Of a DNA stretch of 64,000 nucleotides, positions 36,117-51,993 are shown in pieces. Source of the stretch: the human T2T-CHM13v2.0 reference genome, Homo sapiens; assembly GCF_009914755.1 (NCBI RefSeq), contig NC_060929.1; one strand, given 5' to 3'. Under the pieces are notes generated by a model. The model was given only the letters and a program-made list of their open reading frames with translations. It did not search any database and was not told the origin of the DNA. Position 1 is the stretch's first letter; every line of letters starts with the position of its first letter. The position numbers and the translations under genes were made by a program.

Positions 36117-36239
36117 GTAATGAAACATTGTTCAAAACATGTTTCTGAAATTGAATAGATTGATTTTATAACAACTAAGTTATACTTTTAGTTTTCAAAT
36201 AAGTAAAATATTGGAGGTGACTGTCTTAGCCTATTTTTC

Positions 36240-38487
36240 TTTTTTTTTTCTTTTTTTTAAATTTATTATTTATTTTTATTGATCATTCTTGGGTGTTTCT
36301 TGCAGAGGGAGGTTTGGCACGGTCATAGGACAATAGTGGAGGGAAGGTCAGCAGATCAACAAGTGAACAAAGGTCTCTGGTTTTCCTAGGCAGAGGACCC
36401 TGCGGCCTTCCGCTGTGTTTGTGTCCCTGGGTACTTGAGATTAGGGAGTGGTGATGACTCTTAACGAGCATGCTGCCTTCAGGCATCTGTTTAACAAAGC
36501 ACATCTTGCACCGCCCTTAATCCATTTAACCCTGAGTGGACACAGCACATGTTTCAGAGAGCACAGGGTTGGGGGTAAGGTCACAGATCAACAGGATCCC
36601 AAGGCAGAAGAATTTTTCTTAGTACAGAACAACATGAAAAGTCTCCCATGTCTACTTCTCTCTACACAGACACGGCAACCATCCGATTTCTCAATCTTTT
36701 CCCCACCTTTCCACCCTTTCTGTTCCACAAAACCGCCATTGTCATCCTGGCCCGTTCTCAATGAGCTGTTGGGTACACCTCCCAGACGGGGTGGTGGCCG
36801 GGCAGAGGGGCTCCTCACTTCCCAGTAGGGGTGGCCGGGCAGAGGCGCCCCTCACCTCCTGGACGGGGCGGCTGGCCGGGCGGGGGGCTGACCCCCCCCA
36901 CCTCCCTCCCGGACGGGGCGGCTGTCCGGGCAGAGTGGCTCCTCACTTCCCAGTAGGGGCGGCCGGGCAGAGGCGCCCCTCACCTCCCGGACGGGGCGGC
37001 TGGCCGGGCAGGGGGCTGACCCCCCAACCTCCCTCCCGGTCGGGGCGGCTGGCCGGGCGGGGGGCTGACCCCCCCACCTCCCTCCCGGACGGGGCGGCTG
37101 GCCGGGCGGGGGGCTGACCCCCCCACCTCCCTCCCAGACGGGGCGGCTGGCCGGGCAGAGTGGCTCCTCACTTCCCAGTAGGGGCGGCCGGGCAGAGGCG
37201 CCCCTCACCTCCCGGACGGGGCGGCTGGCTGGGCGGGGGGCCGACCACCCCACCTCCCTCCCGGACGGGGCGGCTGGCCGGGCGGGGGGCTGACCCCCCC
37301 ACCTCCCTCCCGGAGGGGGCGGCTGGCCGGGCAGAGGGGCTCCTCACTTCCCAGTAGGGGCGACCGGGCAGAGGCGCCCCTCACCTCCCGGATGGGGCAG
37401 CTGGCCGGGCGGGGGGCTAACCCTCCCCACCTCCCTCCCAGACGGGGTGGCTGCCAGGCGGAGATGCTCCTCACTTCCCAGACGGGGTGGCTGCCGGGCG
37501 GAGAGGCTCCTCACTTCTCAGATGGGGCAGCTGCCGGGCGGAGGGGCTCCTCACTTCTCTGACGGGTCGGTTGCCAGGCAGAGGGTCTCCTCACTTCTCA
37601 GACGGGGCGGCCGGGCAGAGACGCTCTTCCCCTCCCAGACGGGGTCGCTGCCGGGCAGAGGCGCTCCTCACATCCCAGACGGGGCGGCGGGGCAGAGACG
37701 CTCCTCACTTCCTAGATGTGATGGTGGCCGGGAAGAGGCGCTCCTCACTTACTAGATGGGATGGCGGCCGGGCAGAGATGCTCCTCACTTTCCAGACCGG
37801 GCAGCCAGGCAGAGGGGCTCCTCACATCCCAGACGATGGGCGGCCAGGCAGAGACGCTCCTTACTTCCCAGATGGGGTGGCGGCCGGGCAGAGGCTGCAA
37901 TCTCGGCACTTTGGGAGGCCAAGGCAGGCAGCTGGGAGGTGGAGGTTGTAGCGAGCGGAGATCACGCCACTGCACTCCAGCCTGGGCACCATTGAGCACT
38001 GAGTGAACAAGACTCCATCTGCAGTCCCGGCACCTGGGAGGCCGAGGCTGGTGGATCACTCGTGGTTAGGAGCTGGAGACCGGCCCGGCCAACACAGCGA
38101 AATCCCGTCTCCACCAAAAAAATACGAAAACCAGTCAGGCGTAGCGGCGCGCGCCTGCAATCGCAGGCACTCGGCAGGCTGAGGCAGGAGAATCAGGCAG
38201 GGAGGCTGCAGTGAGCCGAGATGGCGGCAGTACAGTCCAGCTTTGGCTCGGCATCAGAGGGAGAGCGTGGAAAGAGGGAGAGGGGAGACCGTGGAAAGGG
38301 GAGAGGGAGAGGAGGGAGAGGGAGAGGAGGGAGAGGGAGAGGAGGGAGAGGGAGAGGAGGGAGAGGGAGAGGGAGAGGAGGGAGAGGAGGGGGAGGGAGA
38401 GGGAGAGGAGGGAGAAGGAGAGGAGGGAGAGGGAGAGGAGGGAGAGGGAGAGGAGGGAGAGGAGGAGAGGTAGAGGGAGAGGGAGAG
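36240..38487 (-). mobile_element. Full-length SVA retrotransposon (probably SVA_C/D-type): hexamer, Alu-like, VNTR, SINE-R, poly(A)
   Basis: Poly-T ~36240-36280; SINE-R ~36281-36775; GC-rich VNTR ~36775-37895; Alu-like ~37895-38270; (AGAGGG)-type tract to 38487; 11-bp TSD gcctatttttc at 36229-36239 and 38488-38498. Confidence 0.97.
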
Positions 38488-38663
38488 GCCTATTTTTCAT
38501 TGTAGCAAGCTCACTGATTTCTGTTTGTTTGCCCTTTAAGGCCATGACTTGACTTGTGATTTAGGATCTTGATAAGGCATTGAAGTTCATTATTAGTTTA
38601 TTCAAAAATTGATATTTGAACTGTTACTTAATAAAGGTTAGTACTACAGATATAGTATTGTAT

Positions 38664-38804
38664 TTTTTTAATTTTTATTTTTTATAGGCATGGAGTCTCA
38701 CTGTTTTGCCCAGGCTGGTGTCAAACTCTTGGCCTCAAGCAATCTTCTTGCCTTGGCCTCCCAAAATGCTGGGACATTACCAGCATGAGCCACCATGCCC
38801 AACC
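38664..38804 (-). mobile_element. FLAM / Alu left monomer
   Basis: gcccaggctggtgtcaaactcttggcctcaagc...catgagccaccatgccc. Confidence 0.82.
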
Positions 38805-39017
38805 TCTAAAAGTAGTATTTTATAATTATCGTATAGTTCTTAAAATCTTTGTGTTTGGTACTTGATCTTTGGAGCCAATTCCATAAAGAGGGCAGAAATA
38901 TGTAAAAGTTATTACTGGGAGAATTAAGAAACTTATCTCTGTAGTCAAATATGTACTATTAGACTAAGAGATCTAGAATATCTGGGTCTGCCTATGAATT
39001 TGAAGATTTAAGTACTT

Positions 39018-39310
<293 letters not shown>

Positions 39311-39329
39311 AGGACTTATTATTTTAGTA

Positions 39330-46058
<6,729 letters not shown>

Positions 46059-46289
46059 GAGTAAATAATTTTTATGAGTATAAAAACTAGTTGTCACAAT
46101 TGAAGCATTTAAAGTAGAGCCTGGAATATTACTTGAGGAAAACATTAAAGGCAATATTTGCATAAGGCGTTATTTGCACAAAAAGTGAAAAGTGAAAGCC
46201 TCGTTTCACCTCTCCTCCAGCTTTGTCCCTCTCCCTAGAAGACAGCCACTAACAACTATTGATGAATTTTTGTTTATTATGGAATATTC

Positions 46290-46579
46290 TTTTTTTTTTG
46301 AGATGGACTCTTGCTCTGTTGCCCAGGCTGCAGTGCAGTGGTGTGATCTCAGCTCATAGCAACCTCCGCCTCCTGGGTCAAGCGATTCTCCTGCCTCAGC
46401 CTCCTGAGTAGCTGGGATTACAGGCGCCCACCACCACGCCCAGCTAATTTTTTATATTTTTGGTAGAGACCAGGTTTCACCATGTTGGCCAAGCTGGTCT
46501 CAAACTCCTGACCTTGTGATCCGCCTGCCTCTGCCTCCCAAAGTGCTGGGATTACAGGCGGGAGCCACTGTGCCTGGCC
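46290..46579 (-). mobile_element. Alu (AluSg-like)
   Basis: Antisense dimer. Confidence 0.92.
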
Positions 46580-46761
46580 TTTCTTTACCTTTCTTTTAAA
46601 CCATAGATTTGTTTTGGAGAAAATTGTTTACACTCCTTGAGTTCATTCTAGCCTTTACAGTTTAGCAGACACCAACATGATCCAGGTTTGATTTAATGTG
46701 ATACTTAAATTTTTGCTTACTTCTACTAATTAGGGATTATTTGCAGCAACTCACTGGATTA

Positions 46762-47247
<486 letters not shown>

Positions 47248-47346
47248 TCATTAAAGAGGTTGATAGGTCAGTCTATTAAGTAAAAACTAGTTGTTGTTGA
47301 TATTAAGATACATATGTTACTAGTTCCTTTGACATTATGGTGATGA

Positions 47347-47650
<304 letters not shown>

Positions 47651-48342
47651 ACATTTTTCTTTTATTGTGGATCAGTTTAAAATTTGCTTGTTACCAAAAT
47701 TTGTTATAAATTAAGATACTTCTATTAACAGAGCTACAAATTATAGACATTTTATCATGTGAATATTTTTCACTGTTAAACATTTATGGTTAAATAAATT
47801 ATACTGTATGACCTAGGACATATAATTTAATCTCCTTTGCAATAGATACATTAAATTTACCGTTTAAATCTGTTACTGTTAATAATAGTGGCAAACATTA
47901 TGTTGGAAGTCTTCTTTTACATCACAACATTGTTATGTGAATTTTTGACAGTAGAAACAAAAATAGAGAACTACAATATATGAATATAGCTAAATACAGA
48001 ATGGTGACTTTTTTCTCTTCAAGGGTAAAAAGACTTTTTTTCTCTTCTAGTGAATTAGACTGCATAAATAGAAAAAGATTGATTCATTAGCTTTACAGTT
48101 TTGCCTAGGAATGATCTATAAATGCATTTCCCCACCTGCTGCTTACGGAAAGTATAAAAAGGAAGTTAAAGGAAAGTTTCCTTGTTGGTTACTACCATAA
48201 GAAAGGTGCTATATTCTATTTTAGCAGGGCCACTATATGGAAAATATCTAAATTAAATGTTGTTACAAAAATGAATTACTAATGAGATTCTAGCTAAGGA
48301 GGGCACTAAATGTGGATTTTGTGTGTGTATATATATATGTAA

Positions 48343-48646
<304 letters not shown>

Positions 48647-48792
48647 AATATATATTTAAAAAATCCAAAACAAACAAAGGTTGCTATAAAAAAGCTCTGT
48701 ATGTACTGTAAGCATATAGGTTTTTTTCTTTTTTTCATGTGTGTTTTTAAACAATGGAAGAGTCAACTGTGTTAGACTAAATTATGTTATTG

Positions 48793-49096
<304 letters not shown>

Positions 49097-50132
49097 GCAT
49101 TATTGTATGTGCTGCATTGAATGGAACGTTTATATTATAATTATCAAAAAAGTTTGCGTCATAGCAATTTATCCTCATTGAAAACCTTGCAGCATCCTTT
49201 TATTTTGGAATATCCTCTCAACAGTCATACCACCAGGACATGACTGTATAACAATAAAATATTCTCTTGCATTAAATTGGGGATATCTATTCAATAAAAG
49301 ACAAAAAAGAAAATGTAGGAAGTGTACTTAGAGCTGTTACTTTCTAAGTGCCCAACACCGTGGACAATTCAAGCATCGTAATCTCTGTAAATAACAATAA
49401 CAAAAAAAATTTTTGTCCTGCTGTTAAAATCCATCATTATAGACAAAACTGGTGAAGATTGATTAGACAGATTCATCTAACACTGATGTCCAAGCTGGCG
49501 TTGGCAACTAATGCATAACTGGTGGTCAATAGAGATTTTGAAAGATCTTCACTTTCTATTGTTCTTTTCCAGGGGTCTTGAAGAGTTCTGTTCTAAAATA
49601 TGTTGTTGAGTTGAGCTTCTCAGTTTGCTTTTTCATTCTCAAACTGGTGACGTTTTTCCTCTAATTCTTTGTGCTGTGCTTAAATTCCTTTTTGCTCTTG
49701 GCACCGTTGGAGCTCAGTTTCAGAGTCCTTCAGTTTTTGAACTTTTTTTTTTTTGACCTTCATCTTGAACGCCTGCTTCATCTTTGTCCCCATCTTCTTC
49801 ATTTTAGCTACATGCTGTCTTCTTTCCTCTTCCATTTGTGCCAGAGGGCTCTTAGTAAGCTGCCCTTTATTCTTGTTGTTTTCAACTCCATTGTAAGTCA
49901 GGTGCCATTTTTCTGCTTCTGTGGTTTTCGTAATGGGCATTATCAGGAACATCTTTCAAGTCTTGTATGTGTGTTCCTATCAAGATACTCCTTAGAATTG
50001 TAAAATTACAGTGCTCACCATATTCAACATCAGCAACACCCTTAGGATACTGCCTTCCTCTGACTCTCTTGCCATTAACTTCAATGGTAGTATTATTGGC
50101 TACCACAGCAAGTGGTAAACAGTCCTTTATCC

Positions 50133-50520
50133 TTTTTTTTTTTTTTTTTTTGAGACAGAGTCTCGCTCTGTCACCCAGGCAAGCCTGGTGATAGCTGGTT
50201 GTCCAGGATAGAATTTTAGTTCAACTTTAAACTTACCGAATTACTCACAGAATTTTACTTAGTCTGGTAATCTGGAGTGCAGTGACCGATAGCTCACTGC
50301 AACTTCTGCCTCCTGGCTTCAAGTGATTCTTGTGACTCAGCCTCCCAAGTAATTGGGATTACAGGCACATGCCACCATGCCTGGCTAATTTTTGTATTTT
50401 TAGTAGAGATGGGGTTTCGTCATGTTGACCAGGCTGGTCTCGAACCCCTGGCCTCAAGTGATTTGCCTGCTCTGGCCTCCCAGAGTGCTGGGATTACAGA
50501 CATGAGCTGCTGCACCCAGC
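50133..50520 (-). mobile_element. Alu (AluS) in the SEPTIN7 retrocopy CDS, itself interrupted by a NUMT
   Basis: TSD cagtcctttatc at ~50120 and 50521. Confidence 0.93.
50180..50271 (+). other. Micro-NUMT: fragment of mitochondrial 16S rRNA (MT-RNR2)
   Basis: agcctggtgatagctggttgtccaggatagaattttagttcaactttaaa matches recalled mt-16S AGCCTGGTGATAGCTGGTTGTCCAAGATAGAATCTTAGTTCAACTTTAAA; splits Alu cccagg|ctggagtgc. Confidence 0.9.
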
Positions 50521-51319
50521 CAGTCCTTTATCTTTTTAACAAGTTTATTTTCTTCATCATGTGTTTTTGGAAATTCATATATTTAATTTTATGTTCTTAG
50601 ATTTCTTTCATTATCTGTTTTTAAACTATTGGCATTTCTCTGGTATCAGCATGTCTGCTTTGGCAATAAGTGGGAATGATATTCACTTTTTCAAGCAAAA
50701 GCTTCATAAACTTAGTATCAAATGGTTTAAGTCCATGTCCTGAAGGAGAAATGAAGTATAAACAACACTGCACCCTGTTATGAGGCATCTGACATCTGTT
50801 TTATCATGATTCTCCATTTAGGTGGTCCTCAATTTACTATCAGTGTAGTCAGTAACCAACAATTACTATTACCCATTGCAAGTCTAAATCATGGGATATC
50901 AACTCTTGTGAGCAGCAACTGAACACCACCTTCTTTGATTAAAACTTTGCATAGTTCCACCTGCACGGTCTTTTTAATTCTGTGAGAAGAATCTGGATAC
51001 TCTGGAGAATACAGAGTGAAGAATAATGAGTTGATTAATGTAAAGTTTCTGAATCCAGATTTCCCCACTGCCATAAGTATGAATTCCAACCCTCTCTTCA
51101 CTGATTTTCTGGATATTTGATTTGGGAGACTGGAAAATCCCACGTAGACTTCAGGGTTCTTCTGTTGAGCTACCATGCTGCTGTTGATGCTTCTCTCCTC
51201 AGCAGCAGATCTCTTGCTGACTGACATACCCTCCCCACTCCATGACTAGCCCCAGCTGGAAATCTTATTTAGAGGTTAAATAAAATGTGTTCCAGAGATT
51301 TAAAGATAAATGAAATATT

Positions 51320-51555
51320 ATAAATTTGTTCAGACCCGTAGAATGTACAACACCAAGAATGAACCCTAAGGTAAACTGTAGACGTTGGGTGATAGTGATG
51401 TGTCAGTGTAGATTCATCAATTGTAATAAATGTACCACTTTTGGTAGTGGATGTTGATAATGTGGGAGGCTATGCATATGTAGGATGGGGAATATGGCTG
51501 TACCTTTGAATTTTGCTGTGAACTTAAAAATACTCTAAAAAATAGTATTTAAAAA
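51320..51555 (+). mobile_element. L1MC-like 3' end fragment
   Basis: agaatgtacaacaccaagaatgaaccctaaggtaaac...aataaatgtaccact. Confidence 0.8.
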
Positions 51556-51566
51556 ATCTTAAAATA

Positions 51567-51850
51567 GGCCAGGCACGGTGGCTCACGTCTGTAATCCCAG
51601 CACTTTGGGAGGCTGAGGCAGGTAGATCACGAGGTTGGGAGATCGAGACCATCTTGGCCAGCGTGGTGAAACCCTGTCTCTACTGAAAATACAAAAATTA
51701 GCTGGGCGTGGTGGCGTGTGCCTGTAATCACAGCTACTCGGGAGGCTGAGGCAGGAGAATGGCTTGAACCAGGGAGTTTGCAGTAAGCCAAGATCACACC
51801 AGTGCACTCCAGCCTGGCAACAGAGCGAAACTCTGTCTCAAAAAAACAAA
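51567..51850 (+). mobile_element. Alu (AluSc-like)
   Basis: Dimer ending ~140 nt before exon 10. Confidence 0.92.
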
Positions 51851-51993
51851 ATCTCAAAATAAAATTAAAAAGTGAAAGAGAAGGACTTTCAGGCAAACAA
51901 AATATAAATGTAATAGTAATAAAAATATGAAACATGGATGTTTCATATGCTAGAAGGTAAAAATTTTAATTTTATCTTTTTTTTCTCTTATAG

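What the first reader, a model, noticed from the sequence alone, without database searches (positions are those of the whole stretch)
50180..50271. Mitochondrial 16S rRNA micro-NUMT inside an Alu inside a pseudogene inside an intron
Seen: 92 nt split the Alu consensus cccagg|ctggagtgc with no TSD. The first ~52 nt match mt-16S rRNA as recalled (around m.2000-2050) with about two differences. The remainder (acttaccgaattactcacagaattttacttagtctggtaat) looks like a stuttered, diverged continuation. Known: NUMTs enter at double-strand breaks by end-joining, often with junction rearrangement. The four-level nesting brackets its age (younger than the AluS) and preserves an ancestral primate mtDNA sequence. 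It is short and repeat-masked, so it may be missing from NUMT catalogues and could mis-map mitochondrial small-RNA reads.
Basis: partly seen in the sequence, partly recalled or inferred. Interest (0 to 1): 0.7.

Follow-up and report, generated by a model that had tools for sequence, protein, structure and literature searches.

The report
Known mitochondrial scrap patching an Alu
This is a real but already catalogued scrap of mitochondrial ribosomal DNA sitting inside an Alu repeat in a human intron, likely pasted in during repair of a DNA break tens of millions of years ago, and it is likely without function.

Summary
92 nt interrupt an otherwise complete Alu, which sits in the processed pseudogene SEPTIN7P10, in a DMXL1 intron. 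The insert is mitochondrial 16S rDNA: it matches 32 other nuclear loci, mostly long rRNA NUMTs.

It is not missing from catalogues. It is HSA_NumtS_224 (m.2003-2058, 56 bp, 92.86%) and CHM13_numt261 (scored present in all six great apes), and it has a row in Tsuji 2012.

(1) The 34-nt tail that catalogues leave out is also 16S-derived: 76 nt of mitochondrial sequence in all, plus an 8-nt local copy, a 2-nt expansion and an 8-nt duplication across the mt-Alu junction, with no Alu base lost. That is likely a polymerase-theta end-joining scar. (2) The sequence differs from the old NUMT class at 2 of 76 sites and from ape-era NUMTs at 13, so the donor looks older than Tsuji's post-rhesus age. Monkey orthologues could not be checked, and the rhesus catalogue lists nothing here. 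A second NUMT (chr4) joins an Alu at the same Alu and 16S position; this may be chance. Verdict: ordinary and known; interest low.

The parts
36117..51993 (+). DMXL1 intron that holds everything; the insert lies 14,064 nt from the upstream exon and 1,723 nt from the downstream exon
   Evidence: hub annotation; distances
49342..51256 (-). SEPTIN7P10 processed pseudogene
   Evidence: hub annotation; a contiguous 733-nt piece matches separate exon-sized blocks at C7:35.94-36.02 Mb, 82-92% (that this is the parent gene is recalled); colinear with L036 and L037
50120..50136 (.). Alu target-site duplication, left copy
   Evidence: family D5; target present once in L036
50137..50179 (-). Alu 3' end and A tail (left of the insert)
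50165..50195 (+). Imperfect foldback across the left junction: Alu flank pairs with the start of the insert (12 pairs, -5.9 kcal/mol)
   Evidence: 175 of 20,000 random Alu x mt junctions are as strong
50180..50237 (+). 16S rDNA core, colinear with mtDNA; the catalogued NUMT is 50182-50237 (m.2003-2058). The first base is shared with the Alu (1-nt microhomology)
50238..50245 (+). 8 extra nt identical to 16S sequence lying 4 nt further on (or the remnant of a 12-nt back-slip)
50246..50259 (+). 16S sequence resumes, old type, with a 2-nt T expansion at 50255-50256
   Evidence: 11 of 12 nt repeat with 50210-50221 (D9)
50260..50275 (+). 8-nt tandem duplication (50260-50267 / 50268-50275, one mismatch) spanning the mt-Alu junction; 50272-50273 is shared by mtDNA and Alu (2-nt microhomology)
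50272..50520 (-). Alu body (5' part), AluS type; non-CpG divergence 8.7% from a local consensus, rank 41 of 53. An AluSz6-like label is recalled, not tested
50521..50537 (.). Alu target-site duplication, right copy

Best explanation
It is a catalogued NUMT: about 76 nt of mitochondrial 16S rDNA inside a complete Alu, likely captured as filler at a double-strand break in an anthropoid ancestor and likely neutral since. Shown: 16S origin, the nesting order (pseudogene, then Alu, then insert), no Alu base lost, 1-nt and 2-nt microhomologies, and three short length changes within 40 nt of the right junction that all copy neighbouring sequence. Inferred: the left end joined nearly blunt; the A+T-rich right end had only 2 nt of homology, so synthesis started, slipped and restarted several times, as polymerase theta does, leaving the stutter (about 60%). 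Inferred: the donor was mtDNA of the old burst class, so the insertion predates the human-rhesus split (about 65%).
For: Identity. Order of nesting. Stutter is not background: insertions of 5 nt or more number 3 in 22,631 aligned bases of 26 NUMT rows, against two 8-nt events in 40 nt here. Short (rarely over 10 nt), A+T-rich, repeated-round direct-repeat insertions at microhomologies under 3 nt are the described polymerase-theta signature (PMC7165422 passages). No target loss occurs in 54% of primate NUMT insertions, and 10 of 90 had an extra insertion over 5 nt (PMC2567098 passages). Donor age: 2 of 76 differences from the majority of 15 old-class NUMTs, 7 from 5 intermediate ones, 13 from 3 ape-era ones. 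All 14 of 14 placements inside the younger clade are rejected, delta lnL 15 or more, p-SH at most 0.015. 13 of the 15 old-class loci could be matched to Tsuji rows and all 13 are age a, before the rhesus split (my cross-assembly matching). No other locus matches the two distinctive stretches.
Against: Tsuji gives age b (after rhesus, before gibbon) and reports that manual checks of the 120 b-f NUMTs found no simple age error. The rhesus catalogue has no entry between chr6:108.6 and 120.1 Mb, though it also lacks two short human age-a NUMTs from that interval. The 76-nt reading was guided by old-class sequence. Unedited controls are weaker: raw 66 nt delta lnL 8.4, p-SH 0.10, p-AU 0.019; 56-nt core 6.6, 0.11, 0.028; raw 92 nt not rejected, p-AU 0.11. 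AU tests on a free 400-column tree did not reject membership of the young clade (p 0.30 and 0.21). True mtDNA of human or monkeys was not available; NUMTs stood in for it. No sequence can show which enzyme acted, and the pre-insertion site was not seen.
Confidence: 0.72

Rival explanations
1. Secondary copy: after the rhesus split, a break in the Alu was patched by copying 76 nt from an older nuclear NUMT, so the sequence looks older than the insertion.
For: It reconciles the old sequence type with Tsuji's age b and the blank in the rhesus list. The best single placement is beside L007 (C2:117.45 Mb), which shares the T at insert position 36.
Against: That placement is not significant: 32 of 49 placements are not rejected by AU. 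That T occurs in 9 of 34 loci. The three loci that share both distinctive bases (L022, L029, L034) are far more diverged elsewhere. No donor flank came along. PMC2567098 (passages) found only 1 of 90 recent NUMTs that could have come from a NUMT on the same chromosome. 4 of 38 loci gave no ungapped match and were not scored.
Confidence: 0.2
2. Same capture, but by classical NHEJ with a simple junction; the tail duplications arose later by replication slippage.
For: Microhomologies are only 1 and 2 nt and no target was lost, as described for Ku-dependent NUMT capture. The 12-nt back-slip sits on a short local repeat.
Against: All length changes lie in the last 40 nt, one spans the junction itself, and the background rate is 3 in 22,631 bases.
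Confidence: 0.2
3. Guided capture: this Alu position and this 16S position share a short similarity; the left end folded back, copied itself, and so made the homology that caught the mtDNA. The site would be a recurrent entry point.
For: Foldback at the left junction is matched by 175 of 20,000 random junctions, and by 48 of 5,794 mt starts for this Alu end. A second NUMT (L025, CHM13_numt231) joins an Alu at the same Alu and 16S positions by direct microhomology.
Against: Noticed after the fact; p is only about 0.01. The loop bases also match mtDNA, which snap-back synthesis does not explain. The pair is not among the 25 best Alu-versus-rDNA local matches shown. The pattern search found no third case: 1 exact match (L025) and 2 two-mismatch hits that read as plain Alu, not inspected further.
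Confidence: 0.12
4. The insert has a function (cryptic exon, small RNA, regulatory element).
For: It lies on the sense strand of a transcribed intron (hub annotation).
Against: No RefSeq exon or element covers it (hub annotation). No RNA family matches the insert. Its junction is scrambled. No expression data were available.
Confidence: 0.03

Closest known systems
HSA_NumtS_224 / CHM13_pri_N257 / CHM13_numt261 / Tsuji hg18 chr5:118490993-118491048
   Same: This very element: T2T coordinates match exactly; 56 bp, 92.86%, m.2003-2058 (2005-2060 in Tsuji), plus strand, intronic; scored present in six great apes.
   Different: The rows stop at 56 bp and do not record the 34-nt tail, the junction anatomy or the host Alu. 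Tsuji's age b conflicts with the old donor type found here.
Primate NUMT insertions by end-joining (Hazkani-Covo and Covo 2008, PMC2567098; Wei 2022, PMC9630118)
   Same: No target deletion, 0-2 nt microhomology, extra bases at one junction (passages).
   Different: Here the extra bases are several local copies; the 2008 study set aside junctions with insertions over 5 nt.
Templated insertions of polymerase-theta-mediated end joining (PMC7165422)
   Same: Direct-repeat tracts of 8 nt, A+T-rich, several rounds, short first microhomology.
   Different: Those were measured at Cas9 breaks with genetic controls; here the pattern is read from one fixed ancient allele, and one partner is mtDNA.
NUMTs straddled by retrotransposons (Tsuji 2012)
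   Same: A NUMT inside an intact retrotransposon; 10 of 557 cases (section 50).
   Different: I did not see the list of 10, so whether this is one of them is unknown.

Membership tests
NUMT | Significant similarity to mtDNA | tested here: met
   Indirect: 32 nuclear paralogues, 17 of 20 scanned carry rRNA or tRNA matches; catalogue rows give 92.86% to chrM. chrM itself was not held.
NUMT | Embedded in nuclear flanks with sharp junctions | tested here: met
   Alu on both sides, reading on when the insert is removed.
NUMT | No retrotransposition marks (TSD, poly-A) | tested here: met
   At most 1-2 shared bases at the junctions; no A tail.
Primary NUMT (direct from mtDNA) | No closer nuclear donor | tested here: inconclusive
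   Only self at 1 or fewer mismatches for a 26-mer and at 3 or fewer for the tail 28-mer; L007 cannot be excluded.
Primary NUMT (direct from mtDNA) | Presence pattern in primates fits the donor's age | not testable with these tools
   Great apes present; no monkey genomes available; rhesus list blank.
TMEJ templated insertion | 5 nt or more repeated from flanking DNA at the junction | tested here: met
   Two 8-nt direct repeats.
TMEJ templated insertion | Short tracts, A+T-rich, short first microhomology | tested here: met
   8-nt tracts, 2-nt microhomology; criteria.
TMEJ templated insertion | Dependence on POLQ | not testable with these tools
   Ancient fixed allele.
AluS host (AluSz6-like) | Subfamily diagnostic positions | not tested
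   No repeat library available; label recalled. 7SL similarity, TSD and 8.7% non-CpG divergence show an old full-length Alu.

The most novel reading that the evidence does not exclude
One spot in the Alu right arm and one spot in mitochondrial 16S rDNA form a reused entry point for mtDNA: the chr4 NUMT joined there by direct microhomology, and this one by foldback priming followed by polymerase-theta stuttering. Alu sequence would then steer where and which mtDNA enters the genome, and both junctions of an ancient germline event would be readable base by base.
Probability: 0.12. Interest if true: 0.5.

Novelty: already known. Interest (0 to 1): 0.2.

Why it matters
Little as a discovery: the element is catalogued and likely neutral. 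It is a tidy example of a rare placement (10 of 557 NUMTs lay inside retrotransposons in Tsuji 2012). It shows that BLAST-defined catalogue rows can cut off the part of a short NUMT that carries both the repair scar and most of the dating signal, so ages given to short NUMTs may be too young. It is also a ready presence/absence marker for primate phylogeny.

Tried and rejected
Missing from catalogues: rejected. A first search of the 2012 UCSC tables with hg18 numbers found nothing; hg19 numbers found the row.

Tail from another locus: rejected; only self matched, and no non-self match went beyond query position 66.

Rfam on the insert in place: no rRNA match.

The per-locus mismatch table was faulty (gaps allowed too cheaply) and is not used; one search replaces it. 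The placement runs failed technically; one search is the valid one. The second half crashed and was redone.

Monkey presence data: two paper searches and passages of PMC7605268 and PMC4227756 gave nothing for this locus. The rhesus table searched by 'chr6' and by coordinate prefixes gave no row for it; the chr6 rows were then read directly.

A hot spot of NUMT ends at m.2005-2013: three Tsuji rows start there (part 4 of 4 unread). About one is expected by a rough count, and alignment edges cluster at conserved blocks, so it was rejected as evidence.

No protein, structure or complex tools were used; nothing here codes.

Full report
Observation. The 92 nt at 50180-50271 interrupt a minus-strand Alu (50137-50520). 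With the insert sliced out, the Alu is continuous at the join. The Alu carries a 17-nt target-site duplication, and the processed pseudogene L036 aligns across the site with the target once, so the Alu entered SEPTIN7P10 after the pseudogene formed. A 733-nt piece of the pseudogene matches separate exon-sized blocks on C7, as a processed copy should. The order pseudogene, Alu, insert is therefore shown. All lies in a DMXL1 intron, 1.7 kb from the nearest exon (hub annotation).

Identity. The insert has 33 matches among 33 candidates scored in the own genome, self included. Of 20 such loci scanned, 17 carry rRNA or tRNA matches and 13 have an LSU rRNA match over the homologous position. Mitochondrial DNA itself is not among the 24 contigs, so NUMTs served as stand-ins throughout.

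Already catalogued. [quoted passage not shown] The UCSC compilation has it as HSA_NumtS_224, m.2003-2058 (PMC3314570 supplement 1). Tsuji 2012 has a 56-bp row at the equivalent hg18 place with age b, meaning after rhesus and before gibbon (PMC3467031 supplement 3). The hope that it is uncatalogued fails.

The tail. Against old-type NUMTs the insert reads: 58 nt colinear 16S (50180-50237); 8 extra nt identical to 16S sequence just ahead (50238-50245); 16S resuming (50246-50259) with two extra T; then an 8-nt tandem duplication, one mismatch, that spans the mt-Alu junction (50260-50275). An equally good parse of the first part is a 12-nt back-slip with a 4-nt loss. Microhomology is 1 nt on the left and 2 nt on the right. 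In 26 aligned NUMT rows, insertions of 5 nt or more number 3 in 22,631 bases, so two 8-nt events in 40 nt at a junction are unlikely to be later drift (inference). The rearranged tail occurs nowhere else at 3 or fewer mismatches (the search's reversed control gave 1 match).

Mechanism. Primate NUMTs often enter without target loss, and 10 of 90 recent ones had an extra insertion over 5 nt (PMC2567098 passages); 20.5% of breakpoints in a large human cohort had short insertions (PMC9630118 passages). Polymerase theta leaves short, A+T-rich, locally templated repeats when the first microhomology is under 3 nt, often in several rounds (PMC7165422 passages). The right junction fits this description. 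The enzyme is inferred, not shown; classical NHEJ plus later slippage remains a rival.

Age. A tree of 26 longer NUMT rows separates an old star-like class from a nested younger clade (100/100 support). The 76-nt colinear reading differs from the majority of the 15 old-class rows at 2 sites, from the 5 intermediate rows at 7 and from the 3 ape-era rows at 13. On a fixed backbone, 14 of 14 placements inside the younger clade are rejected; 32 of the other 35 are not, including the stem of that clade. By my matching of chromosome, place, strand and mt span, 13 of the 15 old-class loci have Tsuji rows in the three of four table parts read, all age a; so do L003, L011 and L013 at the base of the younger clade. 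A burst of NUMTs near 54 Mya has been proposed (PMC1925129 passages); equating it with this class is inference. The host Alu is among the more diverged local copies (8.7% non-CpG, rank 41 of 53), which allows an early date.

Against the early date. The 76-nt reading was guided by old-type sequence. Unedited controls point the same way more weakly (raw 66 nt: p-AU 0.019, p-SH 0.10; 56-nt core: 0.028, 0.11; raw 92 nt: 0.11, 0.18). Free-tree AU tests did not reject the young clade. Tsuji reports no simple age error among manually checked b-f NUMTs. The rhesus list has no row between chr6:108.6 and 120.1 Mb, but it also lacks two short human age-a NUMTs from the matching interval, so the blank is weak. 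If rhesus truly lacks it, copying from an older nuclear NUMT is the likely answer; L007 is the best, non-significant, candidate.

The coincidence. The left Alu flank can fold back on the start of the insert (12 pairs); 175 of 20,000 random Alu-by-mtDNA junctions do as well. L025 (C4:131.385 Mb; CHM13_numt231, all six apes) is a separate, younger-type, 378-bp NUMT inside an Alu, joined at the same Alu position and within a few bases of the same 16S position, in direct orientation. No third case turned up, and this pair is not among the 25 best Alu-rDNA local matches shown. I rate guided, recurrent capture at about 12%.

Literature seen. PMC13629686: abstract, outline, most of Methods, passages, two supplement searches; its Supplemental File PDF could not be read. 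PMC3467031: passages, section 50, table parts 1-3 of 4; its supplementary PDF was not read and may list the 10 straddled NUMTs. PMC3314570: part 2 of 4, one human row, rhesus table part 3 of 8. PMC2567098, PMC9630118, PMC7165422, PMC1925129, PMC4227756, PMC7605268: passages only. SD-MMEJ papers: search listing only. A search for the locus names found no paper holding two of four terms; six topic searches showed none on this junction by title or abstract. Subscription papers are not covered, so the tail anatomy may be described elsewhere.

Verdict. Real, already known, likely neutral. Interest 0.2.

Noticed in passing
L025 (G000:C4:131385463-131385841): A 378-bp 16S NUMT inside an Alu, joined by direct microhomology at the same Alu and 16S positions as the window's left junction. 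It replaces about 15 nt of the Alu 3' end and is followed by the A tail and a second Alu.
   Followed up: partly
window 50285-50293: The host Alu has a deletion of about 4 nt, 15-20 nt from the right junction; the result shares a 7-mer with the insert. Probably chance.
   Followed up: no
window 50181: This site varies among 34 paralogues as CA 14, CG 7, TG 4, other 9, the pattern of CpG decay in nuclear copies; the insert has CA.
   Followed up: partly
L033 (G000:C11:103413400-103413643): An old-type 16S NUMT interrupted by about 80 nt of other sequence inside the same 16S segment; it shares the A-to-G change seen in the first copy of the window's junction duplication.
   Followed up: no
L012 (G000:C8:33282909): A short internal deletion just before the matched segment, between two copies of a 6-nt repeat; looks microhomology-mediated.
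   Followed up: no
L016, L022, L029, L034: The most diverged NUMTs share some states with the younger clade and others with the insert, so these 16S sites changed more than once; the root differed between the 1004- and 400-column trees.
   Followed up: partly
window 50120-50136 and 50521-50539: The Alu target begins at a TT/AAAA-type site on the pseudogene strand, the usual L1 endonuclease site (motif recalled).
   Followed up: no
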